The notes: generated by a model not told the origin, from the sequence alone. 64,000 nt of DNA from Actinomycetota bacterium (GCA_049325515.1 JBMOLI010000004.1:152006-216005); one strand, 5' to 3'. Counted from the stretch's first letter, positions 44,306 to 58,297 are shown. Numbers and translations are program-made.

Positions 44306-44312
44306 GGCGCGC

Positions 44313-45197
44313 TCAGGCGATGTGCGAGAAGAGCAGACCGAGCTCTTCGCTGGCGTTGGACGGCACGAGGTAGCCCTCTCGGTCGCACATCTCGTCCCAC
44401 CGCTCGGCGATGGCCTCCATCGACAGGTCCGGGTCGAAGATGCCTCGAGTCACCCCGATGAAGATCTCGGCCAGCCTCCCCCCGGCGACCGAGAAGAGGC
44501 GGCCGGTCGCCGAGCAGGCCTCGGACGCCAGATAGCCCACGATGGGGCTTACGAGGCGCGGCTCGAGCTTGTCGGCGGCGCCGCCCAGGATGTCCTCGGT
44601 CATGCGCGTCTTGGCCCCGGGAGCGATCGCGTTGGCGAGGACCCCGTACTTGGCGCCCTCCTGGGCGAGGACCCGGGTGAATCCCACCACGCCCATCTTG
44701 GCGGCGCCGTAGTTCGTCTGGCCGAAGTTGCCGAAGATCCCGGCAGCGGAGGAGGTGTTGACCACACGGCCGTACCCCTGGTCGCGCATCAGCCGCCATG
44801 CTGGCTGGGTGACGTAGAAGGCGCCCCGCAGGTGCACGTCGAGCACCGGATCGAGCAGGTCGTCGGTCAGGTTGTGGAACGCCTTGTCCCGCAGGATCCC
44901 CGCGTTGTTGACGACGATGTCGACCCTGCCGAACGCCTCCACTGCCGTGCGGACAATGTCCTCGCCTCCCGCCCGGGTCGACACGGAGGCAGTGCTCGCC
45001 ACGGCGACGCCCCCGGCCGCCTCGATCTCCTCGGCGATCCGCTGCGCCGGGCCGGCATCCCCGCCGTCTCCGGCGACCGATCCGCCGAGGTCGTTCACCA
45101 CGACCTGTGCGCCCCGGCTGGCCAGGAGGAGCGCGTGCTCCCGACCGAGGCCGTTGCCTGCTCCCGTCACGATCGCCACACGTCCGTCGAATCCCAT
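44313..45197 (-). CDS. SDR family oxidoreductase, MFE-2/Hsd4-type
   Basis: GRVAIVTGAGNGLGRE, NNAGILRD and YGAAKMG. Paralogue of 12347..13267. Start taken at ATG 45195-45197. Confidence 0.9.
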   Translation of the reverse strand: MGFDGRVAIVTGAGNGLGREHALLLASRGAQVVVNDLGGSVAGDGGDAGPAQRIAEEIEAAGGVAVASTASVSTRAGGEDIVRTAVEAFGRVDIVVNNAGILRDKAFHNLTDDLLDPVLDVHLRGAFYVTQPAWRLMRDQGYGRVVNTSSAAGIFGNFGQTNYGAAKMGVVGFTRVLAQEGAKYGVLANAIAPGAKTRMTEDILGGAADKLEPRLVSPIVGYLASEACSATGRLFSVAGGRLAEIFIGVTRGIFDPDLSMEAIAERWDEMCDREGYLVPSNASEELGLLFSHIA

Positions 45198-45336
45198 GTC
45201 GCTCACGGCCTCTTCCCTTCGCTGGTTGCACGGGCTGGTTCGCCTCGGGTCACTGTTTTGTGAGACACTAGGCGCAAATCGTCTTGCGTCGTCAAGGCGA
45301 ACGTCGTTCGGTGGCCCCAGCGAGGAGGACGATGCG

Positions 45337-45765
45337 GTGGCAGCAGGTCGTGCGCTGGAGGAGGGGTACTTCACGGTGCCGGCAGACGGCGGCGAGCGGC
45401 CTCGACTGCTCGGTTCGTTCAGCCCCGCCGCGGACCTCCACTTCTTCCCGCGGCGCCGGCGTTGCCCCGTGAGCCAGGAGCCCGTGGTGGACGTGGAGCT
45501 CTCGCCCGTCGGCGTGCTCTACTCGTGGACCTTCGTGGTCTCGCCCTGGATGGGTAAGAACCGCATGGGCGGCCTCGAGGGCCACGGTGTCGGCCAGGTC
45601 GATCTCCCGGAGGGCGTGCGGGTGCAGACCATTCTCCGAGGCGACATGGGGGACTGGGAGATCGGCATGCCGATGGTGCTGGAGCTCTATCCCGTCATGC
45701 AGGACAAGGACGGGACCGACCTGCTCACGTTCCGGTTCGCTCCGACGCAGGGAGGTTCTGCCTGA
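45337..45765 (+). CDS. DUF35 OB-fold protein lacking the four-Cys zinc ribbon
   Basis: GVLYSWTFVV...GVGQVDLPEGVRVQTIL...MVLELYPV is OB-fold-like, but only one Cys remains where the other two copies have CxxC...CxxC. GTG 45337 lies 7 nt after GAGGAGGA. Confidence 0.75.
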   Translation: MAAGRALEEGYFTVPADGGERPRLLGSFSPAADLHFFPRRRRCPVSQEPVVDVELSPVGVLYSWTFVVSPWMGKNRMGGLEGHGVGQVDLPEGVRVQTILRGDMGDWEIGMPMVLELYPVMQDKDGTDLLTFRFAPTQGGSA

Positions 45766-46913
45766 TGAGAGAGGACGTCTACGTCGTCGGGGTTGGCATG
45801 ACGCGTTTCGGGCTGCACGAGGGACGGGTGGGCGACCTCGCCTTCGAGGCCGGTACCAGCGCTCTCGGCGACGCCGGAATCCGGTTCGACGAGGTCGGGG
45901 CGCTCTACAACGGGTACATCGGTGGTGGCGGCCTGCTGGCAGGCATCACGGTCGCCAAGGACCTCGGTCTCACCGGGCTCCCGATCGTGCACGTGGAGAA
46001 CGCTTCGGCGACCGGCTCCTCGGCCTTCCGAGAGGCCGTCCTCAACGTGGCCGGTGGCCACTCGGAGGTGGCCATGGCGCTCGGCTTCGACGACATGAAC
46101 CGAATGGGCGGCACCACGGGGTTGTTCAAGCCGGGCGTCGAGACCGTGATGCTGCCGGCGGCCTTCTTCGCCATGTGGGCGACACGGCGCATGCACGATC
46201 ACGGGACCACGGTCGAGACCTTCGCCAAGATCGCGGCCAAGAACTGGAACCACGCACGGCACAACCCGCTGGCCCAGCGCCGCGCCGACCACGAGGTCAC
46301 CGTCGAGGAAGTCCTCGCGTCGAAGATGATCGCCTACCCGCACACGTCCAAGATGGCGTGCGCGGCGGGTGCCGGTGCCGCCTGCGCCATCGTGGCGAGC
46401 CGCGCCGTCGCTGAGCGCCTCGCCAACGGTCGGCCGCTCGTGCGGGTCGCCGCGTCCGCCCAGCAGACCGAGCGCTACACCGACGGGCACATCTTCATGG
46501 GTGCGGTGGTCGGGCCGGGTGAGCTCACTCGCACCACTGCGGTGGCGGCCTACGAGGAGGCTGGGCTCGGCCCCACCGACCTCGACCTCGTGCACGTCCA
46601 CGACGCCTTCCCGATCGAGGAGCTCATGTACTACGAGCTGCTCGGCATCTGCGGCGTCGGGGAGGGCGACAAGCTCGTGGCCGAAGGTGCGACGTCCATC
46701 GGTGGCCGCATCCCGTTCTCCACGGACGGAGGGCTGACCGCTCGAGGTCACCCCGGCGGGCCCACGGGCCTCGCCCAGATCTACGACGTGGTGCGGCAGC
46801 TGCGGGGCGAAGCCGGGCCAGCTCAGGTCGACGGGGCGCGCGTGGGGCTGGCACACATGATGGGTGCCGGCTCGGTCTGTGTGATCCACGTCCTCCAGCG
46901 GGGGGCGAGCTGA
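45765..46913 (+). CDS. thiolase-like protein, SCP-x / lipid-transfer (Ltp) type
   Basis: VYVVGVGMTRFG...VENASATGSSAF...STDGGLTARGHPGGPTGLAQIYDVVRQLRG. TGATG overlap with the DUF35 gene. Confidence 0.85.
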   Translation: MREDVYVVGVGMTRFGLHEGRVGDLAFEAGTSALGDAGIRFDEVGALYNGYIGGGGLLAGITVAKDLGLTGLPIVHVENASATGSSAFREAVLNVAGGHSEVAMALGFDDMNRMGGTTGLFKPGVETVMLPAAFFAMWATRRMHDHGTTVETFAKIAAKNWNHARHNPLAQRRADHEVTVEEVLASKMIAYPHTSKMACAAGAGAACAIVASRAVAERLANGRPLVRVAASAQQTERYTDGHIFMGAVVGPGELTRTTAVAAYEEAGLGPTDLDLVHVHDAFPIEELMYYELLGICGVGEGDKLVAEGATSIGGRIPFSTDGGLTARGHPGGPTGLAQIYDVVRQLRGEAGPAQVDGARVGLAHMMGAGSVCVIHVLQRGAS

Positions 46914-47039
46914 CAGGAGCGACGTCACTAGCAGGATGTCTTGCCGTCGACGGCGCCGAACGGGCAGGACGTGGGAGCCCGGTGCTCTATGAGCCAGCGT
47001 GCCGGCTAGCCCCATGGCAGTCGAGCGTGGACCGCAACC

Positions 47040-47068
47040 TTGACCGTAAGACGAACGGTGCATAGTGT
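47040..47068 (+). promoter_or_regulatory. candidate sigma-A-type promoter TTGACC-17 nt-TAGTGT upstream of the ALDH/ferredoxin/di-iron operon
   Basis: TTGACC at 47040-47045, exact 17-nt spacer, TAGTGT at 47063-47068, about 47 nt upstream of ATG 47115. Pattern match only. Confidence 0.35.
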
Positions 47069-47114
47069 CGCATGAGTGCGGCTGGCGGTCGCCGCCACCG
47101 ACCTGAGGAGTGTC

Positions 47115-48569
47115 ATGACCATCGAACGTGGCGAGCTGTTCATCGACGGTGGGTTCGTGTCACCGTCCTCGTCGAGCATCATCGAGGTGCGTTCTCCAGC
47201 CGACGGCCAGCTGATCGGCTCGGTGCCCGAAGCCGATCTGACCGACCTCGACATTGCCGTCGCGGCGGCTCGCCGGGCCTTCGACGAGGGCCCATGGCCC
47301 CGCCTCACGATGGCCGAGCGGGCCGAGTGCCTCGGCCAGCTCCATGCCGAGCTCAACGGCCGGCAGGCCGAGCTGGCCGCTCTCGTGACCGACGAGGTCG
47401 GCACGCCGATCTCGTTCTCCACCATGGTTCAAGCCATGGTGCCGATGATGTTCCTCGACTACTACGTCGACCTCGGCCGCTCCTACGCCACCGAGGAGCT
47501 GCGGCCGGGAATGCTGGGGCCGAGCATCGTGGTCCGGGAGCCCGTGGGCGTTGTAGGCGCCATCGTGCCGTGGAACTACCCCTTCTACCTCACCATCGCC
47601 AAGGTCGCCCCGGCCCTCCTTGCGGGATGTACGGTCGTGGTCAAGCCCGCCCCCGAAACTCCGCTCGACACCTACCTGCTGGCTGAGGCGGCGGTCGCCG
47701 TCGGCCTGCCCCCCGGGGTCCTGAACATCCTTCCCGCCGGCCGAGAGGTCAGCGAGGCGCTGGTGGGCCATCCAGGGATCGACAAGATCAGCTTCACGGG
47801 CAGCACGGCCACTGGCAAGCGGATCATGGGGATCTGCGCTGAGTCGGTGCGCCGCGTCACCCTGGAGCTCGGCGGCAAGTCGGCGTGCATCCTGCTCGAC
47901 GATGCCGACCTCGACCTCGCGGTGCCGGGCGCCGTCCAGGCGGCCACCCTGAACTCGGGCCAGACGTGCGTAGCCCAGACGCGCCTGCTCGTCCCCCGCT
48001 CCCGTCACGACGAGGTGGTCGACCGGGTGGTTGGCCTCTTCGAGTCGATGGTCGTGGGGGATCCCAAGGACCCCAGCACCACCGTCGGTCCCATGGTCTC
48101 GGCCCGCCAGCAGGAACGGGTCCTCGGCTACATCGAGGTCGGCGAGCGCGAGGGCGCCAAGGTTGTCACCGGTGGCGGGGTGCCTCGGGGCCTCGACGGC
48201 GGCCACTTCGTTGAGCCCACCGTGTTCGTGGGCGTCGAGAACCAGATGCGCATCGCCCAGGAGGAGATCTTCGGTCCGGTCCTCGCCGTCATCCCCTACG
48301 ACGGCGAGGACGATGCCGTGGAGCTGGCCAACGACAGCATCTACGGCCTGTCCGGGGCGGTGTGGTCCAGCGACACCGACCGCGGTGTCGCCGTTGCTCG
48401 ACGGATCCGGACCGGCACCTTCGCCGTGAACGGCCTCGGGATGAACCCGGCGGCGCCCTTCGGCGGGTTCAAGCAGTCGGGGATCGGGCGAGAGCTGGGG
48501 CCGGAGGGCCTGAGCCCCTACCTCGAGTACAAGTCGATCTCCGTCCCCGCCACCTACACGGGCAGCTGA
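47115..48569 (+). CDS. aldehyde dehydrogenase (NAD(P)+)
   Basis: ELGGKSACILLDDAD, NSGQTCVAQTR, FTGSTATG and EEIFGPV. ATG 47115 lies 4 nt after GAGGAG. Confidence 0.9.
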   Translation: MTIERGELFIDGGFVSPSSSSIIEVRSPADGQLIGSVPEADLTDLDIAVAAARRAFDEGPWPRLTMAERAECLGQLHAELNGRQAELAALVTDEVGTPISFSTMVQAMVPMMFLDYYVDLGRSYATEELRPGMLGPSIVVREPVGVVGAIVPWNYPFYLTIAKVAPALLAGCTVVVKPAPETPLDTYLLAEAAVAVGLPPGVLNILPAGREVSEALVGHPGIDKISFTGSTATGKRIMGICAESVRRVTLELGGKSACILLDDADLDLAVPGAVQAATLNSGQTCVAQTRLLVPRSRHDEVVDRVVGLFESMVVGDPKDPSTTVGPMVSARQQERVLGYIEVGEREGAKVVTGGGVPRGLDGGHFVEPTVFVGVENQMRIAQEEIFGPVLAVIPYDGEDDAVELANDSIYGLSGAVWSSDTDRGVAVARRIRTGTFAVNGLGMNPAAPFGGFKQSGIGRELGPEGLSPYLEYKSISVPATYTGS

Positions 48570-48642
48570 CGCAGGTGCCCGCCCCGCCCGGATCGTGTCG
48601 AGGTGGTTGCGACAGAAGACGGAATCTGTCACAGTCCTTGTG

Positions 48643-48936
48643 ATGGCCCGCTCCTTCTCGAAGCGCCACGGCGCCCCTTATGTGATCATCGACGGTTGCA
48701 TCGAGTGCGGCATCTGCGAGCGTGTCTGCCCGTACGACGCCATCTTCATGAGCGACGACCTCGAGTACGTGGTCGACGGCTCGCTCTGCCCGAGCTGCAA
48801 CCGGTGCCTCGACCCGTGTCCCGTCGACGCCATCATCCCGATGGATGCGCCGGGGGCGGCGGCGATCCGCGAATCGAACCGACCGTTCGTGCTCGAAGAC
48901 TGGCAATCGATCCTGGCCAACCACGGAGGCAACTGA
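48643..48936 (+). CDS. 2x[4Fe-4S] ferredoxin
   Basis: CIECGICERVCP and CPSCNRCLDPCP (two CxxCxxCxxxCP motifs). ATG 48643. An alternative GTG lies at 48595. Confidence 0.8.
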   Translation: MARSFSKRHGAPYVIIDGCIECGICERVCPYDAIFMSDDLEYVVDGSLCPSCNRCLDPCPVDAIIPMDAPGAAAIRESNRPFVLEDWQSILANHGGN

Positions 48937-49814
48937 TGAAGAAGTTCATGGTCCCCGACGAGCTGCAGCGAGATGAGAGGTTCACCCGCACGCCGGTGCC
49001 GCTCGACTTCCTGATGGCGGAGGAGGTCACGGTCGAGCAGGTCGAAGAGACGATGATGAACCTTCTCGCCAACGACGAGGTCCGTCAGATGATGGAGGAG
49101 GGCACCGCAACCGGTGGCGCTCCCAACATCCTCAAGCGGGTCAGGCCGGACGAAGACGACGCACCCGTGTTCATCAAGACCCAGATGCACGGGATCTTCA
49201 TGGGCGAGATGCAGGCCCTCGAAGCGGCTGGTCGGAGCGCGTGGGACTTCACAGATGACGAGGAGCTGCCGTGGAAGTTCCAGCTCGACATGGCCCGGCA
49301 GTGCTGGGACGAGACGCGCCACGTGGAGATCTACTCGGCGCTCCTCGATCATGTCGGCTGCGAGATCGGGGAGTTCTCGGAGAACCTCTTCCTGTTCGAG
49401 TTCGGCTGCTCCGATGATCCAGCGGAGCGCGTCGTCGGCGTCAACCGGTGCCTCGAGGGCCTAGCCCTCGACGTCTTCAACGATACGATCCGGTTCGGCA
49501 AGCAGGCTGACGACGACGCCATCTGGCGGTCGGTCGACTACGTCGCCGCTGACGAAGTCACCCACGTGCGGTTCGGCCAGGTTTGGTCGAAGGCGCTGAC
49601 CGAGAACGACCCCGAGCGACGCAAGAAGGTCGTGGACTTCCAGCGCAAGGTCGACCGAGCCTTCAGCCTGGGGGGCCTGCGCGGCTCCTACGACGGCGCC
49701 AACGCCGAGAAGTTCCTTCCCCTTGCCGTCGAGTTCCGCAAGCTGGCTGGCTTCACTGACGAGGACATCGCCGATGTCGCCGGTGCTGGCCCCAGGGTGG
49801 TGGAGGCCCAGTGA
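48936..49814 (+). CDS. ferritin-like di-iron carboxylate protein, DUF455-like
   Basis: E96-x29-E126TRH129 and E174-x32-E207VTH210 (GEMQALE / WDETRH / CLEGLALD / ADEVTHV). TGATG overlap with the ferredoxin gene. Confidence 0.75.
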   Translation: MKKFMVPDELQRDERFTRTPVPLDFLMAEEVTVEQVEETMMNLLANDEVRQMMEEGTATGGAPNILKRVRPDEDDAPVFIKTQMHGIFMGEMQALEAAGRSAWDFTDDEELPWKFQLDMARQCWDETRHVEIYSALLDHVGCEIGEFSENLFLFEFGCSDDPAERVVGVNRCLEGLALDVFNDTIRFGKQADDDAIWRSVDYVAADEVTHVRFGQVWSKALTENDPERRKKVVDFQRKVDRAFSLGGLRGSYDGANAEKFLPLAVEFRKLAGFTDEDIADVAGAGPRVVEAQ

Positions 49815-50566
49815 CGGCCAACGGCAACGGCACCGCCAACGGCGAAGTCGTCTCCGGTTACGGCACGGCTCGTCGCGCGCAGCCCTTCCCCTACTGGGAC
49901 CGCCGGCGGCTGATCGGCGAGTGGACAGTGGAGGAGTCGGTCGAGCGGATCGTGCACTACAAGTTCGCCGAGCAGCAGCTCTCCGCCGCGCTCGGCGGCT
50001 GGGTCGCGACCATCCCCGAGCTGGATGTCAAGGCGATGCTGGGCACACACTGCTACCAGCATGCCTGGCACGCCGACCTGTGGCGGCTGCGGTTGCCCGA
50101 GCTGCGCGAGACGCGTGAGGACCGCGCCGAACCCGCCAACCCAGAGTTCGAAGCGTTCATGACGGAGCTGACGAGCCCGGGGGAGCCCGACGAGACGATA
50201 GAGAAGCTGGTCGGGATCTACCGGGTGCTCGTGCCGCACCTCCTCGCTACCTACAGCTTTCACCAGAGGGTGACATCGGACATCGTGGACGCACCGACGG
50301 TGCGGATCCTGAAGTTCATGATCGACGACGACGTCGAGCAGCTCATCACGGGCGAGATGATGATCCAGGACCTCGCCCGCGCGCCCGAGCTCCGCGAACG
50401 GGCGGGGAAGTGGCAGACGCACCTCGATGTCATGTTGGCCAGGTCCGGGGGCGTGGCCGGTGAGCGCACCCTGGGTGGCCGGTCGGAGATCGTGAAGCCG
50501 GCCCGCGCCGTCCTGGGCCAGGCGTTGCGGAGCCGTCGCGAGGGCGCCAAGGCCACCACCTCCTGA
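49811..50566 (+). CDS. hypothetical protein (251 aa), no family recognised
   Basis: GTGA overlap with the upstream gene and TGATG overlap with the downstream gene. Composition is protein-like. The HCYQHAWH motif sits about 30 residues after E54. Confidence 0.65.
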   Translation: MTANGNGTANGEVVSGYGTARRAQPFPYWDRRRLIGEWTVEESVERIVHYKFAEQQLSAALGGWVATIPELDVKAMLGTHCYQHAWHADLWRLRLPELRETREDRAEPANPEFEAFMTELTSPGEPDETIEKLVGIYRVLVPHLLATYSFHQRVTSDIVDAPTVRILKFMIDDDVEQLITGEMMIQDLARAPELRERAGKWQTHLDVMLARSGGVAGERTLGGRSEIVKPARAVLGQALRSRREGAKATTS

Positions 50567-50874
50567 TGGAGGATCCGGTGCCCGTATCACGAGACCTGTA
50601 CGAGGGCGACGCCACGGTCGCTGAGACCCTGCAGATCGAGCAGCGCCTCCGCGACGCCGGCTATGCCGCGTTGCCAAAGGTCCTCAGCTATGGAGGGGAC
50701 TTCGACTTCAAGGGTGCCTCAGTTGAGCAGGTGGTCGACGAGGCTCTCCGGTACCTGCGGCACCAGCAGACCGTGGAGCTGGCGGGCGCGACCATTCTGG
50801 CCGCCCTCGGCGAGACCGCTGTGAAGGCGCAGGCCTTCGACGCGATTCTCCGGTTGGTGCGGCGCGGGCGGTGA
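50566..50874 (+). CDS. hypothetical small protein (102 aa)
   Basis: Translationally coupled on both sides. Hand count gives about 84% G/C at third codon positions. No motif recognised. Confidence 0.55.
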   Translation: MEDPVPVSRDLYEGDATVAETLQIEQRLRDAGYAALPKVLSYGGDFDFKGASVEQVVDEALRYLRHQQTVELAGATILAALGETAVKAQAFDAILRLVRRGR

Positions 50875-51749
50875 GCGAGCCGGAGGAGATCGAGTTCGTC
50901 GCTGGCTCCCTTGTTCTCAGGGGCACGGTCCGGGGGCCTAGCGACGGGTTGCACGTCGTGCTCCTCCACGGCGGTGGCCAGACGCGCCACTCCTGGGGGA
51001 CGGTCGCAGAACACCTCGCACGCCGTGGATGCCGCGCCATAGCCATGGACTTGCGGGGCCATGGACGAAGCGACTGGGCACCCGATGGCGACTACCGGAT
51101 CAGCGCCTTCGCCGCCGACCTGCTGTCGGTCGTCGCGCAGCTCAACGACGCGCCGATAGTGATCGGGGCATCCCTGGGCGGCATGGCCGCCCTGATCGCC
51201 GAGGGGGAGGCCCGGCAGCAGGTGAGCAGTGGGCTGGTGCTCGTCGACATAGCCCCTCGCGTGGAGGTGAGCGGCGTCGCCCGGATCGTCGGGTTCATGA
51301 CGTCGAACTTGGACGGCTTCGACTCGCTCGAGGAGGCAGCGGACGCGATCGCCGCCTACAGACCTGACCGGCCACGGTCGACCGATCTCGACGGCTTGTC
51401 GAAGAACCTGCGTCAACTCCCTGATGGTCGGTGGAGGTGGCACTGGGACCCGGCCTTCATGAGTCTCGAGCGGGGCGCGGCAAGCGAGGGTACGGGCGAC
51501 CGCCTGGCGCACGCGGCTCGGCAAGTCGACGTCCCCACCTTGTTGGTGCGGGGCAAGCGGAGTGATCTGCTGAGCGAGAGCGGCGCGCAGCACTTTCTCG
51601 AGCTGGTGCCGCACGCGCAGTTCGTCGACGTGGCCGATGCTGGACACATGGTGGTGGGGGATCGCAACGACGCGTTCGCGGCTGCGATCCTGGGCTTCGT
51701 CGACGAGATCTGCACTACGACAAAGGACGTTGGGCACACCGCCGGCTGA
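50871..51749 (+). CDS. alpha/beta hydrolase
   Basis: VVLLHGGGQTRHSW...DLRGHGRSD...VIGASLGG (nucleophile elbow)...DAGHMVVGD. GTGA overlap with the upstream ORF. Confidence 0.85.
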   Translation: MSEPEEIEFVAGSLVLRGTVRGPSDGLHVVLLHGGGQTRHSWGTVAEHLARRGCRAIAMDLRGHGRSDWAPDGDYRISAFAADLLSVVAQLNDAPIVIGASLGGMAALIAEGEARQQVSSGLVLVDIAPRVEVSGVARIVGFMTSNLDGFDSLEEAADAIAAYRPDRPRSTDLDGLSKNLRQLPDGRWRWHWDPAFMSLERGAASEGTGDRLAHAARQVDVPTLLVRGKRSDLLSESGAQHFLELVPHAQFVDVADAGHMVVGDRNDAFAAAILGFVDEICTTTKDVGHTAG

Positions 51750-51874
51750 TCGCGCCCGGTGTCAGCGACAGGTCGGGACCCAGGCAGGCAGGTCGCCGGA
51801 CCGCTGTGCCTCACGCCACCCGGCCCGCACCCACGAGCACGAGAGTGCTTGGTCCGACGCTGGGGCGGCGGTGG

Positions 51875-52543
51875 TCAACCGCCGTTGGCCGATCGGGTTC
51901 GCTGGCGGGATCGACGGCGGGGTTCGACTGGCCTCGGATCGGCGATGAGCGCCGGCACCAGGAACGTCTGCAGGTAGTGGTACATGTCAGCCTCCGTGCG
52001 CTGGCGCGGCCCGGCCACCGTGAGGAGTGACAGGATCGTCCTCAGTGTCCATTCCGCGGCGTCGTCGAGGTCGATCCCGACTCTGATCTCGCCGGTCTGC
52101 TGGGCGGCCTCGAACAGTGGCCCGAGGAACTGGGCGGTGAGGTCGAAGAGCGCCTCGGACGCACCGGCCACCGCACCGGTGAGCCCTGCGGCTTCCGGAG
52201 CAAAGAGGAGGGCCAGGTTCTCGTCCGTTCGCACGGCCTTCACGGTGAAGAGAACCCCGGACACCAAGGCCGTCTCGAGGTCCGGCTGGGCGTTCAGCCG
52301 GTCGCTCAGGCGCTCGAGGAACCGGCCGGCTTCGCGCATCAGCACCGCCAGGATGATCGCGTCGCGCCCGTCGAAGTAGCGGTACACCGTCGCCCGAGAC
52401 ACCTTGGCTGTGGCGGCTACATCCTCGACCGTGGTCTTCATGACGCCATAGCGGTGGAAGCACGCTTCGGCAGCGTCTATAAGGCGTTCCCGTGCGGCGC
52501 TGGTGCTGTTCGGCGCATCGGCGCCCCATCGGAGCTTGGTCAC
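51875..52543 (-). CDS. TetR/AcrR family transcriptional regulator
   Basis: HTH TTVEDVAATAKVSRATVYRYFDGRDAII. GTG start. Confidence 0.85.
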   Translation of the reverse strand: MTKLRWGADAPNSTSAARERLIDAAEACFHRYGVMKTTVEDVAATAKVSRATVYRYFDGRDAIILAVLMREAGRFLERLSDRLNAQPDLETALVSGVLFTVKAVRTDENLALLFAPEAAGLTGAVAGASEALFDLTAQFLGPLFEAAQQTGEIRVGIDLDDAAEWTLRTILSLLTVAGPRQRTEADMYHYLQTFLVPALIADPRPVEPRRRSRQRTRSANGG

Positions 52544-53017
52544 TGACCGATCCTACCGAGTCCGCGACTCCGGCTTGCGCCATCGCGAGCAGGAGCCGCG
52601 CTGGTGCTCGTGGAGCCAGAAGCCATCGTCACGCCGCCACGATGGTCGAAGCCGGTCCGCCGGAACGCTGCGGTCTTGGGGTATGACCTGGTTCGCCGAG
52701 CGGACCGGCCCCGATCGTGGCGCACGCCGACTGGGTTGCACCACGCGCTGCGCGCCCGGGGGAGGGCAGGCAGCTCGATTGTCGGCAGGACCTCATCTTC
52801 ACCCATGCTAACACAAATCACAGATCCCGCCTCATGTCGTGGGCCGTTCTAGTTTTCTCCCGCGATCGGAGATCTCGAGCGGATCCTGACGCATCGTGAG
52901 CACGTGCGGGGCTCCGAGGCATCGACCGTCGAGGTGCTTGCCTGCCGCCAGCCGCCGAGCTCGACGGGTCACGGAGGGCTGCGGTCACTGCGCCACGGAG
53001 CGGGCTCCTCGGCGAAT

Positions 53018-53086: not shown

Positions 53087-55087
53087 TTGATCTACGTAAA
53101 CGGTGCACTTGTCGGGATCCTCACGGGCGCGGCGTACTCGCTCGTCGCCGTCAGCATCACGCTCATGTTCCGGTCCACCGGCGTGCTGTCCTTCGCACAC
53201 GCCGCGTTCGCGGCGGTCGGCGCCTACGTCTACGCCGATCTCGCCGGCGGCGGCATGCAGCCGGTGGCGGCGATGTTTCTGGCTCTGCTCGTCACGGTCA
53301 CCTACGGGTTGGTCATCGAGCGGCTCGCCATCCGGCCCGTGCGGTCGGCGTCAGCCACCACGAAGCTGATCGTCACCCTCGGCGTGTTGTCGATGACCAC
53401 CGGGCTGCTGTTGCAGTTCTACGGGTTCGAGCCGACGAGCGCTCCGCTGCTCCTCCCGAACCGAACCGTCACCATCGGCGACGTAGCGTTCTCCTACCAG
53501 CAGATCGCGATCTTCGTCGTCGCTGCTGTGCTGGCCGCGGCGCTCGGCTGGTTCCTTCGAGCCACTCGCTTCGGTCTCGCGGTGCGCGCCGTGGCCGAGA
53601 ACGGCGAGGCGGCCCGCCTCATGGGCGTTCCGTTGGTGCAGGTGGCCCGGTTCAACTGGGCGCTCGGCGCGTTCCTCGCCGGGCTGACGGGCATCCTGGT
53701 CGCACCCCTGTCGGTCATCACGGTAGCGACGTTCCCGCTGCTGTTGACCAAGGCGCTCACCGCCACACTCTTCGGCGGTCTCGTATCGCTTCCCCTCACG
53801 CTGGCCGGGGGTCTCGTCGTGGGCGTGGTGGAGAGCATCACCACCCTGAAGACCTCGTTCTCGGGCTCCAAGGAGCTCGCCACGCTGTTCCTGGTCATCG
53901 CGCTGCTGGTGCTACGGCGACGCTGGCCAGCAGAGGCGACCGAGGAGACGGTCTTCGCTCGCCGTGCTCCGCTGCGGACCATCGAACCGCTGATGCGGCG
54001 CCTTTCGTCGGGCTTGGAGCGAGCTCGGCCCGTCCTCGTGGCCGTGGCAGTGCCATTTGCTGCCTACGGCCTCTACCTCGCCAGCACCCGCAACTACTGG
54101 GGCTTCGTCGGCGCCCGGGGATTGTTCTACGTGATCGAGGCGCTCAGCCTGGTGCTGCTCGTGGGCTGGGGTGGCCAGGTCAGCCTCATGCACGGCGCCT
54201 ACGTAGGCATCGGTGCCTTCATGACCGCATACCTCGTGACCGAGCACGGTCTTCCGCTCCCGGTCGCGATCATTGTCGCCGCGTTGACGGGCATGGCGAT
54301 GGGCGCGGTGGCCGGCCTCCCGGCGCTGCGGCTCAGCGGTCTGCAGTTCGGGATCGCGTCGTTGGCGTTCGCCGCGGCCGCGTCTGAGTGGCTCTTCAAG
54401 CGGCCCGAGTTCCCGAAGAGCCTGCCACGAGGGGAGCTGTTCGGCCTCGACCTGTTCGAGGACACGACCGTCTTCCTGGTGATGCTGCCCGTCACGGTCG
54501 CGCTCTACCTCTTGGTGTGGAACGTCCGGCGCTCCACGTTCGGGCCGCTGTTGATCTCGGCGCGCGATGCCGGGTCGACCGTCGCCCACTTCGGCGCCAA
54601 CCCCAAGCGCACCCGCATGTGGGCGTTCATGCTCGCCTCGTTCATCGCCGCGCTGGGAGGAGCGTTCTACGGCGTCCTGCTCAGTGGCTTCCAGCCGTTC
54701 GACTTCTCGTTCTTCTTGTCCATTGCCCTGTTGCTGTACGTGGTCGTCGGCGGGGTGCAATCGCTGAGCGGGCCGCTGCTGGCCGGGTTCCTCTTCGGCA
54801 TCGTGCCGCAGCTGCTGCAGCGGGGGTCCTCGGGGACCAGCGCCAGCGCCATTCCGGACATCGTCGCCGGCGCGGTCGTCGTGGTGCTCATGGCGGCCCG
54901 GCCGGGTGGGCTGGCCGAGCTCCTCGGCCGAGGGGGTGGTGAGGCGCCGGGGGGGAGCCGCCTGCGTGCAGGACGGTTCGATCTAGTGGTCGCGTCACAC
55001 CACCGACGACCTGCGACCGACCGAAGCGATGCGCAGGGCCAGCGTGCCCCCGCTGCCGAGGACACCGAGGAGCTGGTCACACGATGA
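53087..55087 (+). CDS. branched-chain-amino-acid-type (Liv/HAAT family) ABC transporter permease, fused LivH-like + LivM-like halves
   Basis: The N-half (LTGAAYSLVAVSITLMFRSTGVLSFAHAAF) is LivH-like. The C-half (EALSLVLLVGWGGQVSLMHGAYVGIGAF) is LivM-like. TTG start lies 7 nt after GAAAGGGGGGA. Confidence 0.85.
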   Translation: MIYVNGALVGILTGAAYSLVAVSITLMFRSTGVLSFAHAAFAAVGAYVYADLAGGGMQPVAAMFLALLVTVTYGLVIERLAIRPVRSASATTKLIVTLGVLSMTTGLLLQFYGFEPTSAPLLLPNRTVTIGDVAFSYQQIAIFVVAAVLAAALGWFLRATRFGLAVRAVAENGEAARLMGVPLVQVARFNWALGAFLAGLTGILVAPLSVITVATFPLLLTKALTATLFGGLVSLPLTLAGGLVVGVVESITTLKTSFSGSKELATLFLVIALLVLRRRWPAEATEETVFARRAPLRTIEPLMRRLSSGLERARPVLVAVAVPFAAYGLYLASTRNYWGFVGARGLFYVIEALSLVLLVGWGGQVSLMHGAYVGIGAFMTAYLVTEHGLPLPVAIIVAALTGMAMGAVAGLPALRLSGLQFGIASLAFAAAASEWLFKRPEFPKSLPRGELFGLDLFEDTTVFLVMLPVTVALYLLVWNVRRSTFGPLLISARDAGSTVAHFGANPKRTRMWAFMLASFIAALGGAFYGVLLSGFQPFDFSFFLSIALLLYVVVGGVQSLSGPLLAGFLFGIVPQLLQRGSSGTSASAIPDIVAGAVVVVLMAARPGGLAELLGRGGGEAPGGSRLRAGRFDLVVASHHRRPATDRSDAQGQRAPAAEDTEELVTR

Positions 55088-56349
55088 GGCGGACGCGGGT
55101 CCTTGTCGGGTTCGTGCTGGTGGTCGCAGCGACATTGCCGCAGGCCGGCGCGCAGGGCGCCGCAGGCCCACCTGACACGTTCGACATCGACGTGTCCGCC
55201 GCCCCCGTCTACAGCAGCTCGTCGGCCACCGCTGCCCTGCCCCTCGCCGTGGACGCGGCGGCTGGGTTCAGCCGGGTGCAGCTCAACAGCCAACCGAATG
55301 CCATCGCCACGGCCGGCCCTGGTTACACACCGCTCGCCGACGCCGCGCCGGTGCTGTTCGGCCTACCGGCGCCACCCGCGAGCGTCTCCTGCGCGTCGTA
55401 CTTCCCGGGCCAGCCGCACGAGGCATCCTGCGGTGGACCCGCCCAGGGAACCGGTGGGTTGAGCACCGCTGCCGCCAGCGGGCATGCCAGCAGCGCCGGT
55501 GACCCGCGCGATCCGACCCAGCTCCGTTCAGAGGCCTCCACCCGCGGGGCGGACCTGCGCTCCGGGCCCGAGGTCCCGGCGGCGATCCTCATCGGGCAGG
55601 CCTCATCGGCGGCGGCCGCGGCAGCCGAGGGCGACCGCATGGCGGCGGGCGCGTCCAGCGAGGTCTCCGACATCGCGGTGGCCGGTGTGCTGACCATCGA
55701 GAGCGTCACCTCGTCGGTGAGCGGCGCAGTCGGTGGCAGGCCGGGAACCGCAAGTCAGGAGGCGACCCTGACGATCTCGGGGGCCGAAGTTGCGGGGGTC
55801 CCGGTGACCATCGACAACGAGGGTGTCACGGTCAGCGACCAGGGCACCCCCGGGCCGCTTGGCGCCGCCACCCAGGAACAGGTCAACGCCGCCCTGGCAG
55901 CAGCCGGGTTGCAGGTGCGCACCGTCCCCGGCGCCGAGCCCGTGGCAGCGCCCGACGGCACCAGGGTGCAGGTCGCGTCGGGAGGGTTGCAGATCAGCTT
56001 CGCAGACCCGCAGGGCGCGCTCGCGTTCACGATGAGCATCGGCGAGAGCGTGCTGCGCATGCAGGGATTCCGGGCCGCGACCCTGGCGCAGCTACCGAGC
56101 CCAGCCGCGACCACTGACGTGCCCGTCACCGTACCGGCTGCCGACCTGCCCACCCGTCCCGCTCTGCCCGCACCGCCACCGCCGCCGCCCGCGCCAGGGG
56201 CCACCAGTCCCGCGCCGTCCACCCAGCCATTCGTCCAGGCCGCGGCCATTCCGATCGGCTGGCGCATTCCATTCGCACCGTTTGCACTCCTGGCCCTGGC
56301 GCTGCCCGTGCTCGCCCGTGGCCGCCGCTTCACGTTCACCCCGAGGTGA
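55084..56349 (+). CDS. secreted Ala/Pro/Gly-rich protein with a C-terminal membrane anchor, function unknown
   Basis: Signal peptide MRRTRVLVGFVLVVAATLPQAGAQG, a poly-Pro linker (PAPPPPPPAPG), then a hydrophobic tail FAPFALLALALPVLARGRRF. ATGA overlap with the permease gene. Confidence 0.65.
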   Translation: MRRTRVLVGFVLVVAATLPQAGAQGAAGPPDTFDIDVSAAPVYSSSSATAALPLAVDAAAGFSRVQLNSQPNAIATAGPGYTPLADAAPVLFGLPAPPASVSCASYFPGQPHEASCGGPAQGTGGLSTAAASGHASSAGDPRDPTQLRSEASTRGADLRSGPEVPAAILIGQASSAAAAAAEGDRMAAGASSEVSDIAVAGVLTIESVTSSVSGAVGGRPGTASQEATLTISGAEVAGVPVTIDNEGVTVSDQGTPGPLGAATQEQVNAALAAAGLQVRTVPGAEPVAAPDGTRVQVASGGLQISFADPQGALAFTMSIGESVLRMQGFRAATLAQLPSPAATTDVPVTVPAADLPTRPALPAPPPPPPAPGATSPAPSTQPFVQAAAIPIGWRIPFAPFALLALALPVLARGRRFTFTPR

Positions 56350-56353
56350 CCCC

Positions 56354-56788
56354 ATGACGACCATTGACCTTGCCGAACATCCACTGAGCTCTCCCGGCGA
56401 CGAGCGCAGGGGGGTCGCCAGCCCGACGCGCTGGCGACCTTCCGGCGCCGGACGACTCGACTGGCGCCAGTCGCTCGGTGGAGGGCTCGTTGCCGTCGGC
56501 GCGGTGGCCATCATCATCGCCTGGTGGGGGATCTCGGGGACGCTCGACCCCGGCAAGCAGATGCCCTACCTCGGATCTGGCGGCATCGGTGGCGCCGCTC
56601 TCATCGCGTTGGGCGTGACACTGCTGATCTCCTATGAGCACGTCCGGGACCGGGCCGCCCTCGCGGAGGTGCTCGACCGTCTCGAAGCACTCGAGGCCCG
56701 CCTCGACCGCCAGGACCCGGCCATCGCCAGCAACGGTCGGCGCGGCTCGACCCGGCGTGCGAACTCGACCGCCAAGGCGAGCCCGTGA
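56354..56788 (+). CDS. small membrane protein (2 predicted TM helices) with a C-terminal coiled-coil-like segment
   Basis: GGLVAVGAVAIIIAWWGI and GGIGGAALIALGVTLLI, then RAALAEVLDRLEALEARLDR. ATG 56354 lies 4 nt after the upstream stop. GTGA overlap with the next gene. Confidence 0.6.
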   Translation: MTTIDLAEHPLSSPGDERRGVASPTRWRPSGAGRLDWRQSLGGGLVAVGAVAIIIAWWGISGTLDPGKQMPYLGSGGIGGAALIALGVTLLISYEHVRDRAALAEVLDRLEALEARLDRQDPAIASNGRRGSTRRANSTAKASP

Positions 56789-57576: not shown

Positions 57577-58297
57577 GGTCACCGGCCTCCACGTCTCGTA
57601 CGGGCCGGTGCCCGCCGTACGCGGTGTGGACATGGTCATCGGCGCAGGCGAGGCGGTGGCGCTGCTCGGCCGCAACGGAGCTGGCAAGACCACCACGCTG
57701 CGCGCCCTGGCCGGGCTGCTTCCCGCGGACCGGGGGATCATCAGCTTCGACTCCCACAACATCGGCGCAATGCCCGCCGAGCGGCGCGTGCGCCGCGGGA
57801 TCGCGCTCGTACCGGAGGGCCGGGGCATGTTCCCGCAGCTCACGGTGCGGGAGAACCTGGCCATGGGCGCCTACGGCCGTCGGCTGAGGGGCAGCGAGAT
57901 CAGCTCGGAGATCGATCGGGTCACCGACCACTTTCCACGGCTGAGGGAACGACTGAAGCAGTCGGCTGGGAGTCTGTCCGGTGGCGAGCAGCAGATGCTC
58001 GCCGTCGCTCGCGGTCTGATGGCCGCGCCCAGGCTCTTGATGCTCGACGAACCGTCGTTGGGTCTGGCTCCGGTCATCGTCGAGCAGCTCTACGAGCAGT
58101 TCGACAAACTTCGCCGTGACGGCCTCACCATCCTGGTGGTCGAGCAGTACGTCGAAGTCGCCCTGGGGTTCGTCGACCGAGCCTACGTGCTCGACAAGGG
58201 CGTCGTCGCCCTTGAGGGCGCGGCGCATGAGCTGGCGGCGTCGCCCGAGCTGATCGAGGCCTACCTGTCGGCCGCTCCCGAGGAGGTCAAAGCGTGA
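57569..58297 (+). CDS. ABC transporter ATP-binding protein (LivF-like)
   Basis: Walker A GRNGAGKTT, signature LSGGEQQ and Walker B LLMLDEPS. GTG 57569 overlaps the upstream gene by 8 nt. Confidence 0.9.
   Translation: MLEVTGLHVSYGPVPAVRGVDMVIGAGEAVALLGRNGAGKTTTLRALAGLLPADRGIISFDSHNIGAMPAERRVRRGIALVPEGRGMFPQLTVRENLAMGAYGRRLRGSEISSEIDRVTDHFPRLRERLKQSAGSLSGGEQQMLAVARGLMAAPRLLMLDEPSLGLAPVIVEQLYEQFDKLRRDGLTILVVEQYVEVALGFVDRAYVLDKGVVALEGAAHELAASPELIEAYLSAAPEEVKA

What the first reader, a model, noticed from the sequence alone, without database searches (positions are those of the whole stretch)
48643..51749. Five-gene translationally coupled cassette: 2x[4Fe-4S] ferredoxin, DUF455-like di-iron protein, two orphan proteins and a hydrolase (candidate undescribed oxygenase system)
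Seen: five same-strand ORFs are joined by TGATG (48934-48938), GTGA (49811-49814), TGATG (50564-50568) and GTGA (50871-50874), so they look obligately co-translated.
- ORF1 has two CxxCxxCxxxCP motifs.
- ORF2 (292 aa) carries E96-x29-E126TRH129 and E174-x32-E207VTH210. This is the duplicated E...ExxH ligand set of ferritin-like di-iron carboxylate proteins. By eye it resembles the DUF455 branch, for which I know no characterised member.
- ORF3 (251 aa) and ORF4 (102 aa) match nothing I recognise.
- ORF5 is an alpha/beta hydrolase (GASLGG).
Inference: this is a compact, ferredoxin-fed di-iron oxygenase/oxidase with two accessory subunits. The layout loosely parallels multicomponent di-iron monooxygenases (catalytic subunit, second helical subunit, ~100-aa effector, ferredoxin), but the proteins are much smaller and look unrelated. 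The hydrolase, together with the ALDH immediately upstream (47115-48569, behind a TTGACC-17-TAGTGT promoter-like element), suggests oxidation of a lipid-like substrate to an ester or aldehyde. No reductase gene is adjacent.
Basis: partly seen in the sequence, partly recalled or inferred. Interest (0 to 1): 0.8.

Follow-up and report, generated by a model that had tools for sequence, protein, structure and literature searches.

The report
Ferredoxin-fed DUF455 di-iron operon
An uncultured Acidimicrobiales bacterium carries a conserved four-gene operon (ferredoxin, an uncharacterised DUF455 di-iron protein, its ligand-less paralogue and a small helical protein) that is built like a multicomponent oxygenase but belongs to no characterised enzyme family; the hydrolase and aldehyde dehydrogenase beside it are variable neighbours.

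Summary
Every sequence-level statement in the finding checks out: the five ORFs, the four overlapping junctions, the two CxxCxxCxxxCP motifs, the E…ExxH pairs and GASLGG.

- **ORF2** is a true DUF455 (PF04305) protein. Its six proposed ligands are invariant in 82 homologues from several phyla.
- **ORF3** has no family. It is a helical, ferritin-like protein and a remote DUF455 paralogue (hhalign E=7e-5), and it lacks a conserved ligand set. It sits next to the DUF455 gene in 77 of 86 loci, so it is probably a structural partner, like PaaC or a BMM (bacterial multicomponent monooxygenase) β subunit.
- **ORF4** is an Acidimicrobiia-only, all-helical orphan. Nothing supports an MmoB-like effector.
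- **The conserved unit** is ORF1–ORF4, not five genes. It has its own conserved promoter, placed for a leaderless ferredoxin mRNA, and usually an orthologous TetR gene nearby.
- **Variable neighbours:** the hydrolase recurs in only two other loci, and the ALDH lies directly upstream of the cassette in one other genome.
- **Context:** the neighbours are mostly acyl-CoA and lipid catabolism genes, including a PaaI-type thioesterase that recurs across phyla.

Most likely this is a ferredoxin-dependent heteromeric di-iron oxygenase acting on a hydrophobic substrate, probably an acyl-CoA. No member has been characterised. I rate it a new variant of a known kind, of moderate to high interest.

The parts
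48607..48635 (+). Promoter-like element: TTGCGA (48607-48612), 17-nt spacer, CACAGT (48630-48635), ending 7 nt before the ORF1 ATG, which implies a leaderless or near-leaderless mRNA. The spacer holds the inverted repeat GACAGA (48611-48616) / TCTGTC (48625-48630), a possible TetR operator.
   Evidence: TTGnnn-N16-18-TAnnnT ends 5-8 nt before the ferredoxin start in 16 of 20 non-redundant cassette loci. The background rate is 22 of 14020 start-codon positions. The window's -10 hexamer is degenerate and fails the strict pattern. Function is inferred, not shown.
48643..48936 (+). ORF1: 97-aa 2x[4Fe-4S] ferredoxin, the inferred electron donor.
   Evidence: Two CxxCxxCxxxCP motifs. Fer4_9, Fer4 and Fer4_21 hits. 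Found directly upstream of the DUF455 gene at 66-90% identity in about 20 Acidimicrobiia loci.
48936..49814 (+). ORF2: 292-aa DUF455 ferritin-like protein, the inferred catalytic di-iron subunit. Ligands: E96, E126, H129, E174, E207, H210.
   Evidence: PF04305 at E=1.2e-21, above the gathering score. 2113 homologues, all unnamed or 'DUF455 family'. The six ligands plus E91, R171 and D206 are invariant in 82 homologues.
49811..50566 (+). ORF3: 251-aa ligand-degenerate DUF455 paralogue, the inferred non-catalytic structural partner of ORF2.
   Evidence: No Pfam family. 1758 homologues, none given any name other than 'hypothetical protein'. AF2 helical bundle, pLDDT 73. Foldseek top hits are ferritin-like proteins, including the T4mo hydroxylase beta chain, PaaA/PaaC and MMOH. 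hhalign against ORF2: E=0.0015, improving to E=7e-5 and 63% probability with deeper alignments. Adjacent to the DUF455 gene on the same strand in 77 of 86 loci, in reversed order in 3 of them. Positions equivalent to the ligands are not conserved.
50566..50874 (+). ORF4: 102-aa (or 98-aa from GTG 50578) all-helical orphan, the inferred third subunit or adaptor.
   Evidence: 81 homologues, the named ones all from Acidimicrobiia-type bacteria. An exhaustive HMM search of 1.84 billion representatives gave 17 hits, of which I judge about 7 to be real. Present after ORF3 in 17 distinct cassette loci. AF2 model: helices 16-33, 36-42 and 53-101, pTM 0.35. No Foldseek, PDB or Pfam match. The invariant small-residue helix 72-93 suggests a packing interface.
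50871..51749 (+). ORF5: 292-aa alpha/beta hydrolase. It is a variable accessory gene of this lineage, not part of the conserved core.
   Evidence: Abhydrolase_1 at E=8e-26. A homologue sits in the same position only in L085 (59% identity) and after the ORF3 homologue in L072 (49%). It is absent from the other cassette loci.
51875..52543 (-). TetR-family regulator, the probable regulator of the cassette.
   Evidence: TetR_N at E=1.4e-13. Homologues at 35-73% identity flank the cassette in 13 of 24 Acidimicrobiia loci, in varying orientation. TetR genes also precede the pair in L082/L083 and L052.

Best explanation
**What it is.** This is a self-contained, probably TetR-controlled operon. Its conserved core is four genes encoding a ferredoxin-dependent, heteromeric di-iron carboxylate enzyme of an uncharacterised family.

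**Shown**
- ORF2 is a DUF455 ferritin-like protein with a complete and invariant E/ExxH/E/ExxH ligand set.
- ORF3 is a helical, ferritin-like protein and a remote paralogue of ORF2 without a conserved ligand set. It is almost always encoded next to the DUF455 gene.
- In Acidimicrobiia a 2x[4Fe-4S] ferredoxin gene precedes the pair and a lineage-specific helical 100-aa gene follows it.
- A conserved promoter sits directly upstream of the ferredoxin start codon.

**Inferred**
- ORF2 and ORF3 form an alpha/beta heterodimer, as PaaA/PaaC and the BMM alpha/beta subunits do.
- ORF4 is a third subunit or docking adaptor.
- The ferredoxin reduces the diferric site of ORF2, which then activates O2.
- The activated site hydroxylates, epoxidises or desaturates a hydrophobic substrate.
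- That substrate is most likely an acyl-CoA thioester or a lipid-derived compound, judging from the neighbours: a PaaI-type thioesterase, acyl-CoA synthetase, thiolase/OB_ChsH2 pairs, ACADs, MaoC, Mce genes and BVMO-like genes.
- The ferredoxin is recharged by a reductase encoded elsewhere.
- The ORF5 hydrolase and the ALDH are local accessory steps, not components.
For: **ORF2**
- DUF455 hit above the gathering score.
- Six ligands invariant in 82 homologues at 43-97% identity from Acidimicrobiia, Myxococcota, Binatia, Spirochaetales-type and other MAGs.

**ORF3**
- Ferritin-like fold.
- Remote homology to ORF2 that includes a shared C-terminal GG motif.
- Sub-threshold MiaE_2 and DUF892 hits.
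- Ligand positions not conserved.

**Gene linkage**
- Pair adjacency in 77 of 86 loci, with both gene orders seen.
- ORF1-ORF4 synteny in about 20 species-level genomes.
- Overlapping stop/start junctions recur in L085, L084 and L082.

**Regulation**
- Conserved promoter at a fixed distance from the ORF1 start.
- TetR homologue in 13 of 24 loci.

**Context**
- A PaaI/MenI-type hotdog thioesterase (TIGR00369, 75.6 bits) lies beside the pair in 13 distinct loci. It is 51-57% identical across phyla and sits directly after the ORF3 homologue in four Myxococcota-type loci.
- Acyl-CoA and lipid genes occur in the window and in related loci.

**Precedent**
- PaaA (catalytic), PaaC (structural, same fold, 17% identity), PaaB (small bridging subunit) and PaaE make up one known system.
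- In another, the reductase BoxA carries two [4Fe-4S] clusters (PMC4498308).
Against: - No DUF455 protein has a known function. Pfam still names the family as unknown, and no characterisation turned up in the literature held. O2 activation is therefore inferred from the ligand motif alone.
- The ORF3-ORF2 homology is only moderately supported (63% probability). The Foldseek E-values for ORF3 are weak (0.006-0.06).
- Seven stand-alone DUF455 paralogues at 66-77% identity have no ORF3, ORF4 or ferredoxin gene beside them. The partner may not be obligatory.
- The non-Acidimicrobiia loci have no adjacent ferredoxin or ORF4.
- No reductase gene is nearby.
- Apart from TetR, the neighbours vary, and they belong to families that are abundant in these genomes. 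The substrate class is a weak inference.
Confidence: 0.55

Rival explanations
1. One reading: all five genes, together with the upstream ALDH, form one oxygenase-ester/aldehyde pathway unit. The hydrolase would be an integral step and ORF4 an MmoB-like effector.
For: - ORF4/ORF5 overlap by GTGA.
- A 59%-identical hydrolase follows ORF4 in L085, and a 49%-identical one follows the ORF3 homologue in L072.
- The ALDH lies directly upstream of the cassette in L023/L084.
- BVMO-like genes, an ADH and esterase-type genes in the window fit subterminal oxidation chemistry.
Against: - The hydrolase is absent from all of about 20 species-representative cassettes.
- The position after ORF4 is instead occupied by an MBL-fold gene, a TetR gene or a thioesterase gene.
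- The ALDH is rarely adjacent.
- The cassette has its own promoter.
- ORF4 is predicted all-helical and matches no effector family.
Confidence: 0.12
2. A rubrerythrin- or ferritin-like protective system. The ferredoxin would reduce the di-iron site, which would remove H2O2 or O2, or handle iron, with no organic substrate.
For: - Ferritin-like di-iron proteins fed by small Fe-S proteins include peroxidases such as rubrerythrin (established knowledge).
- The best Foldseek hit for ORF3 is the stress protein YciF, and Dps-like proteins also appear in the list.
- No substrate-specific gene is strictly conserved beside the cassette.
Against: - ORF2 hits no rubrerythrin, ferritin or Dps family.
- A TetR-type regulator and acyl-CoA, thioesterase and P450 neighbours point to small hydrophobic molecules.
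- A ligand-less paralogous partner is the hallmark of substrate-oxidising multicomponent enzymes (PMC4498308).
Confidence: 0.12
3. A macromolecule-modifying hydroxylase, such as a MiaE-like tRNA or protein hydroxylase, rather than a catabolic enzyme.
For: Eight of 28 ORF3 homologues give sub-threshold MiaE_2 hits, the best at E=1.7e-4. MiaE is a ferritin-like di-iron hydroxylase (established knowledge).
Against: - All those hits are below the gathering score, and they fall on the ligand-less subunit.
- No tRNA or translation genes are linked.
- TetR control and a catabolic context argue against it.
- Having two copies per genome, one full cassette and one stand-alone paralogue, is unusual for a housekeeping modifier.
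Confidence: 0.05
4. ORF2 acts alone as a homodimer. ORF3 and ORF4 would be chaperone or metal-insertion factors, or unrelated co-regulated proteins, and not subunits.
For: - Stand-alone DUF455 paralogues at 66-77% identity lack any partner gene.
- ORF4 is restricted to one class.
- Small assembly proteins are known in BMM and Paa operons, for example PaaD (PMC4498308).
Against: - ORF3 is a paralogue of ORF2 and is adjacent in 77 of 86 loci across phyla, in both gene orders. That is the pattern of PaaA/PaaC-type heterodimers.
- At least six of the seven stand-alone paralogues lie in assemblies that also hold a full cassette, so a partner could be supplied in trans.
Confidence: 0.13

Closest known systems
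Phenylacetyl-CoA 1,2-epoxidase PaaABC(D)E
   Same: - Subunit plan: a catalytic ferritin-like di-iron subunit of about 300 aa (PaaA; ORF2 is 292 aa).
- A structural subunit of about 250 aa with the same fold, low identity and no iron (PaaC; ORF3 is 251 aa).
- A small bridging subunit (PaaB; ORF4 is 102 aa).
- An Fe-S electron donor.
- A PaaI-type thioesterase and acyl-CoA genes nearby (PMC4498308).
   Different: - Neither ORF2 nor ORF3 hits a Paa or BMM family in Pfam or NCBIfam.
- ORF4 shows no similarity to any family, and its role is unknown.
- The electron donor is a free 2x[4Fe-4S] ferredoxin, not an NADPH-FAD-[2Fe-2S] reductase.
- The substrate is unknown.
Benzoyl-CoA 2,3-epoxidase BoxAB
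   Same: A di-iron oxygenase acting on a CoA thioester receives electrons through two [4Fe-4S] clusters (PMC4498308). ORF1 aligns with the ferredoxin domain of BoxA at E=4.6e-10.
   Different: - The BoxA hit scores far below the family cutoff (39 against 459 bits) and reflects generic dicluster similarity.
- BoxA also carries the FAD/NADPH reductase, which is absent here.
- BoxB has no ligand-less partner subunit.
Bacterial multicomponent monooxygenases (toluene-4-monooxygenase, soluble methane monooxygenase)
   Same: A catalytic alpha subunit pairs with a ligand-less paralogous beta subunit of ferritin-like fold. The T4mo hydroxylase chain B and MMOH are among the best structural matches to ORF3, with TM-scores of 0.50-0.57. 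A dedicated ferredoxin occurs in some of these systems.
   Different: - The proteins here are about half the size of BMM alpha subunits.
- There is no Pfam membership.
- There is no MmoB/DmpM-type effector, and ORF4 is predicted all-helical.
- There is no reductase gene.
- The ferredoxin is a 2x[4Fe-4S] type, not a Rieske or [2Fe-2S] type.
DUF455 (PF04305) family of the ferritin-like superfamily
   Same: ORF2 is a member by the Pfam gathering score, and the di-iron ligand motif is conserved.
   Different: The family has no characterised member. This branch is distinguished by a paralogous partner gene and, in Acidimicrobiia, by a ferredoxin gene and ORF4.
Soluble acyl-ACP desaturases, MiaE and rubrerythrin (other ferredoxin- or rubredoxin-fed ferritin-like di-iron proteins)
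   Same: They share the four-helix-bundle E/ExxH di-iron site, reduced by a small Fe-S protein (established knowledge). ORF3 gives weak MiaE_2 hits, and ORF2 gives weak R2-type hits.
   Different: All those hits are below threshold. These enzymes are homo-oligomers without a degenerate partner subunit.

Membership tests
DUF455 (PF04305), ferritin-like superfamily | Match to the family HMM above the curated gathering score | tested here: met
   ORF2 scores 77.9 bits against a cutoff of 34.3, E=1.2e-21, over residues 84-253. All listed homologues carry PF04305.
DUF455 (PF04305), ferritin-like superfamily | Duplicated E...ExxH di-iron carboxylate ligand set, conserved among homologues | tested here: met
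   E96, E126, H129, E174, E207 and H210 are invariant in all 82 homologues. Metal binding itself was not tested.
Bacterial multicomponent monooxygenase / PaaA-PaaC family | Sequence membership of the hydroxylase subunits in the family's Pfam models | tested here: not met
   Pfam scans of ORF2 and ORF3 at E<=1 return no BMM or Paa family. PDB sequence searches return no BMM or Paa chain.
Bacterial multicomponent monooxygenase / PaaA-PaaC family | A catalytic di-iron subunit paired with a paralogous subunit of the same fold that lacks the metal ligands | tested here: inconclusive
   Fold, remote homology, ligand loss and adjacency all fit. A physical heterodimer was not tested, because no multimer prediction was available.
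Bacterial multicomponent monooxygenase / PaaA-PaaC family | An MmoB/DmpM-type effector or a PaaB-type bridging subunit | tested here: not met
   ORF4 has no Pfam or NCBIfam hit at E<=1, no PDB sequence match and no Foldseek match. Its model is all-helical with pTM 0.35.
Bacterial multicomponent monooxygenase / PaaA-PaaC family | A dedicated NAD(P)H-dependent reductase encoded with the hydroxylase | tested here: not met
   No reductase appears among the annotated genes within about 10 kb in the window, or in L084-L086.
2x[4Fe-4S] dicluster ferredoxin | Two CxxCxxCxxxCP motifs and Fer4 dicluster HMM matches | tested here: met
   Both motifs are present. Fer4_9, Fer4 and Fer4_21 score above their cutoffs.
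Alpha/beta hydrolase fold (ORF5) | HMM match and the GxSxG nucleophile elbow | tested here: met
   Abhydrolase_1 at E=8e-26. GASLGG is in the translation.
Rubrerythrin / ferritin / Dps | Match to the family HMMs | tested here: not met
   ORF2 gives no such hit. The only link is a weak structural resemblance of ORF3 to YciF and Dps-like proteins.
Di-iron oxygenase (functional class) | Iron content, reduction by the ferredoxin, O2-dependent substrate turnover | not testable with these tools
   This needs protein expression, metal analysis, spectroscopy and assays.

The most novel reading that the evidence does not exclude
DUF455 plus its ligand-less paralogue would be a previously unrecognised class of heteromeric di-iron oxygenase. 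It would have arrived independently at the PaaAC/BMM alpha-beta architecture. In Acidimicrobiia it would have its own leaderless 2x[4Fe-4S] ferredoxin and a unique helical third subunit. It would oxidise acyl-CoA-bound or lipid-derived substrates in widespread uncultured soil and water bacteria.
Probability: 0.35. Interest if true: 0.75.

Novelty: new variant of a known kind. Interest (0 to 1): 0.58.

Why it matters
- **A route to a function for DUF455.** DUF455 is a widespread ferritin-like family with no known function. Here a branch of it comes with defined partners: a dedicated ferredoxin, a degenerate paralogue, a small helical protein and a TetR regulator. It also comes with a recurrent thioesterase and acyl-CoA context. 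Together these turn a 'domain of unknown function' into a biochemical hypothesis that can be tested by co-expression, iron and O2 chemistry, TetR ligand screening and acyl-CoA substrate screening.
- **Scale.** The homologue searches returned about 2100 proteins for ORF2 and about 1760 for ORF3, so the system is common in uncultured Acidimicrobiia and Myxococcota-type bacteria.
- **If it is an oxygenase.** It would add a new family to the di-iron oxygenases. It would also be a second example, besides PaaAC and the BMMs, of a catalytic subunit paired with a dead paralogue.

Tried and rejected
- **PDB sequence searches.** Single-sequence and profile searches for ORF2, ORF3 and ORF4 gave only spurious repeat or low-score hits.
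- **Foldseek with the ORF4 model.** No match at E<=10. The model is too uncertain (pTM 0.35) to draw any fold conclusion.
- **Exhaustive HMM search with the ORF4 profile.** 17 hits, mostly fragments of the same family or giant repetitive proteins. I rejected any link to a known family.
- **Literature searches** for DUF455, PF04305, IPR007402 and COG2833 found no functional study. The mentions were either 'ferritin-like, unknown function' or unrelated DUF455x names.
- **Consensus promoter and terminator scan** of 46800-52700 found nothing. The ORF1 promoter emerged only from the cross-locus comparison.
- **Search for perfect palindromes of 7 nt or more** upstream of ORF1 found none in most loci. 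Only a 6-nt inverted repeat is present in the window.
- **Conserved neighbours beyond the core.** All-against-all clustering of the ORFs in 83 loci found none. I rejected the hydrolase, ALDH, MBL-fold, P450, Mce and ABC1 genes as core components because each occurs in a minority of loci.
- **The 188-aa third gene of the reversed-order locus L082.** No family and no similarity to ORF4.
- **One call failed** because of a frame error and was repeated without that sequence.

Full report
**1. Observation**

The window has 69% G+C. Named homologues of its proteins come from uncultured Acidimicrobiales. The five same-strand ORFs and their four overlapping junctions are exactly as described.

- **ORF1 (48643-48936)** has two CxxCxxCxxxCP motifs and hits the Fer4 dicluster families.
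- **ORF2 (48936-49814)** hits Pfam DUF455 (PF04305) at E=1.2e-21, 77.9 bits against a gathering score of 34.3.
- **ORF3 (49811-50566)** has only sub-threshold hits (TetR_C_31, MiaE_2).
- **ORF4 (50566-50874)** has none, in Pfam or NCBIfam.
- **ORF5** is an alpha/beta hydrolase, and the upstream gene is an ALDH.
- ORF1, ORF3, ORF4 and ORF5 have coding-type GC3 of 0.84-0.91.

Two qualifications apply.
- Overlaps of 4 nt or 1 nt are frequent in this window. They indicate an operon, not an obligate mechanism.
- ORF4 may begin at GTG 50578, which has a good GGAGG and is the start chosen by a gene caller.

**2. The catalytic candidate**

ORF2 has 2113 homologues in the protein collection. Every source name given is 'DUF455 family' or 'uncharacterized ferritin-like protein', apart from one 'hypothetical protein'.

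E96, E126, H129, E174, E207 and H210 are invariant in a 15-sequence alignment. They are also invariant in 82 homologues drawn from 86 loci, down to 43% identity. E91, R171 and D206 are invariant as well.

No PDB entry is related by sequence. No paper in the library characterises DUF455. One calls a member 'ferritin-like superfamily … DUF455' without a function.

**3. Synteny**

A scan of species-representative genomes gave 80 loci. tblastn and HMM searches divide them into classes.

- **(a) About 20 Acidimicrobiia loci with ferredoxin-DUF455-ORF3-ORF4.** Identities to the window are 66-90% for ORF1, 74-92% for ORF2, 63-83% for ORF3 and 49-79% for ORF4.
- **(b) Seven Acidimicrobiia stand-alone DUF455 paralogues** at 66-77% identity, with no partner genes. 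At least six lie in assemblies that also hold a class (a) cassette.
- **(c) 53 loci from Myxococcota, 'Deltaproteobacteria', Binatia, Spirochaetales-type and other MAGs** at 43-47% identity. Here only the DUF455-ORF3 pair is conserved.
- **(d) A further group in which the order is reversed:** TetR, ORF3-like, DUF455, then a 188-aa orphan.

Overall, ORF3 is adjacent to the DUF455 gene on the same strand in 77 of 86 loci.

The ORF5 hydrolase is absent from every species-representative cassette. It recurs only in L085 (59% identity, same position) and in L072 (49%, right after the ORF3 homologue). The ALDH lies directly upstream only in L023/L084. The conserved unit is therefore ORF1-ORF4, and the cross-phylum core is ORF2+ORF3.

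**4. ORF3**

ORF3 has 1758 homologues. None has a Pfam domain, and none carries any name other than 'hypothetical protein'.

The AF2 model has pLDDT 73.4 and pTM 0.69. It is a bundle of long helices at 40-67, 71-92, 126-153, 161-188 and 192-212.

Foldseek against the PDB returns only ferritin-like or haem-oxygenase-like bundles, at E=0.006-0.06 and TM-scores (normalised to the query) of 0.27-0.57. They include YciF, toluene-4-monooxygenase hydroxylase chain B, TenA, PaaA/PaaC and MMOH.

The evidence that ORF3 is a remote paralogue of ORF2:
- Profile-profile comparison gives E=0.0015 over 139 columns.
- With 71 ORF3 and 82 ORF2 homologues, this improves to 63% probability and E=7e-5 over 145 columns. 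The alignment puts the helices in register and includes a shared C-terminal 'GG' motif.
- The ORF3 HMM weakly hits the DUF455 ORFs themselves in ten loci.

At the positions aligned with the ORF2 ligands, ORF3 has H84, H87, V141, D174 and Q177. None is conserved across the family. Only E70, E131, H143 and D160 are invariant or nearly so. ORF3 is therefore best read as a duplicated DUF455 that has lost its di-iron site.

**5. ORF4**

- The word-indexed search found only 81 homologues. The ten that carry a source name all come from Acidimicrobiales or other actinobacterial MAGs.
- An exhaustive HMM search of 1.84 billion representatives gave 17 hits. I judge about seven to be genuine.
- ORF4 follows ORF3 in 17 distinct cassette loci and is absent from every other class.
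- The AF2 model is all-helical with a long helix at 53-101, but pTM is only 0.35.
- Foldseek and PDB sequence searches find nothing.
- The most conserved stretch is helix 72-93, which is rich in invariant Gly and Ala. That suggests a helix-packing interface.

There is no support for an MmoB-type effector. A PaaB-like bridging or adaptor role is an analogy only.

**6. Transcription and regulation**

Comparing the DNA upstream of ORF1 across loci revealed a conserved motif, TTG(C/A)(G/C)AC-N16-18-TAnnnT. It ends 5-8 nt before the ferredoxin start codon in 16 of 20 non-redundant loci. The background rate is 22 of 14020 start-codon positions.

This places the transcription start at or next to the start codon. 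Leaderless mRNAs of this kind are common in Actinobacteria (established knowledge).

The window copy is TTGCGA (48607-48612), N17, CACAGT (48630-48635). Its -10 hexamer is degenerate. Its spacer contains the inverted repeat GACAGA-N8-TCTGTC.

A homologue of the window's TetR (35-73% identity) flanks the cassette in 13 of 24 loci. TetR genes also precede the pair in the reversed-order group and in L052.

**7. Context**

The window from 29 kb to 47 kb encodes:
- two BVMO-like flavoproteins;
- two thiolase/OB_ChsH2 pairs;
- a Zn-ADH;
- another alpha/beta hydrolase;
- an ACAD;
- an NMO-type enzyme;
- an acyl-CoA synthetase;
- an SDR;
- the ALDH.

Related loci show:
- **L085:** the cassette followed by hydrolase, OB_ChsH2, thiolase, two ACADs and MaoC.
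- **L084:** four Mce genes, the ALDH, the cassette, then MBL-fold, AMP-binding and FMO-like genes.
- **L086:** an ABC1 gene, the cassette, then TetR, a 4HBT thioesterase, OB_ChsH2 and thiolase.

P450 genes occur in 11 of 53 class (c) loci.

The most specific recurrent neighbour is a PaaI/MenI-type hotdog thioesterase (TIGR00369, 75.6 bits against a cutoff of 36.6). It is present in 13 distinct loci and is 51-57% identical across phyla. It sits directly downstream of the ORF3 homologue in L036, L043, L074 and L077.

These families are abundant in such genomes. The inference of an acyl-CoA or lipid substrate is therefore suggestive, not strong.

**8. Mechanism**

- **Shown:** the ligand set, the paralogue without ligands, the linkage, the ferredoxin and the promoter.
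- **Inferred:** ORF2/ORF3 form a heterodimer. ORF1 reduces the di-iron site. O2 is activated, and a hydrophobic substrate, probably CoA-bound, is hydroxylated, epoxidised or desaturated.

The closest working analogue is PaaABCE. There, PaaA is catalytic, PaaC has the same fold at 17% identity and plays a structural role, PaaB is a small bridging subunit, and a PaaI thioesterase belongs to the pathway. In BoxAB, electrons pass through two [4Fe-4S] clusters (PMC4498308).

Membership of those families fails. There is no HMM hit, no effector, and no reductase gene encoded nearby.

**9. Verdict**

It is right on the ferredoxin, the DUF455 di-iron site, the orphan status of ORF3 and ORF4, and the multicomponent analogy. 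It is wrong on the five-gene unit, the ALDH promoter and the effector.
- This is a new variant of a known kind: a heteromeric ferritin-like di-iron enzyme in an uncharacterised family.

**Limits**
- No multimer prediction was available.
- All functional statements are inferences.

Noticed in passing
window 48596-48645; L002, L003, L005-L008, L010-L016, L085 upstream of the ferredoxin gene: A conserved promoter-like motif (TTGnnn-N16-18-TAnnnT) ends 5-8 nt before the ferredoxin start codon in 16 of 20 loci, against a background of 0.16%. This implies a leaderless mRNA and a transcription unit that starts at ORF1.
   Followed up: yes
window 48611-48616 / 48625-48630: The inverted repeat GACAGA-N8-TCTGTC lies in the promoter spacer. 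A looser ACA…TGT dyad recurs in other loci (for example ACAAAC-AAC-GTTTGT in L010). It may be the TetR operator.
   Followed up: partly
L019, L021, L022, L024-L027: Stand-alone DUF455 paralogues (66-77% identical to ORF2) have no ferredoxin, ORF3 or ORF4 beside them. At least six of the seven lie in assemblies that also carry a full cassette; L010 and L026 are on the same contig.
   Followed up: partly
L082 7389-10094; L083: This is a reversed-order variant: TetR, an ORF3-like gene (227 aa, 53-57% identity), DUF455 (281 aa), then a 188-aa orphan with no family and no similarity to ORF4.
   Followed up: partly
L036 7655-8074, L043, L074, L077, L014 8061-8510 (-), L086 10348-10797: A PaaI/MenI-type hotdog thioesterase, 51-57% identical between Acidimicrobiia and Myxococcota-type loci, recurs next to the DUF455/ORF3 pair. 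That cross-phylum identity is higher than for the pair itself (43-47% and 34-47%).
   Followed up: partly
window 29652-46913: This is a dense catabolic island: two BVMO-like flavoproteins (29652-31460 -, 36051-37676 -), thiolase+OB_ChsH2 pairs (31717-33368 +, 45340-46913 +), a Zn-ADH, an alpha/beta hydrolase (38898-39905), an NMO-type enzyme, an acyl-CoA synthetase and an SDR. It resembles subterminal alkyl, ketone or steroid side-chain oxidation pathways.
   Followed up: partly
window 40371-41237: This acyl-CoA dehydrogenase ORF is only 288 aa and starts inside the middle domain, so the N-terminal domain is missing. About 460 nt upstream are unassigned. It may be a frameshift, a pseudogene or a miscalled start.
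   Followed up: no
window 33497-35749 (-): This 750-aa ORF has Zn-ADH domains only in residues 414-709. The N-terminal 400 aa match nothing, so the start is probably over-extended.
   Followed up: no
window 53087-59790: A branched-chain-type ABC transporter operon (fused permease, two ATPases, Peripla_BP_6) is interrupted by a 421-aa Ala/Pro-rich protein (55084-56349) and a 144-aa protein. Neither has a Pfam family.
   Followed up: no
window 50566-50580: ORF4 has two candidate starts. ATG 50566 overlaps the ORF3 stop and has no Shine-Dalgarno sequence. GTG 50578 has GGAGG 5 nt upstream. Homologues do not settle it, because the first 12 residues are not conserved.
   Followed up: partly
L052 7600-10227; 11 of 53 class (c) loci: Cytochrome P450 genes lie beside the DUF455/ORF3 pair in Myxococcota-type loci, two in tandem in L052. 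These loci have no adjacent ferredoxin gene.
   Followed up: no
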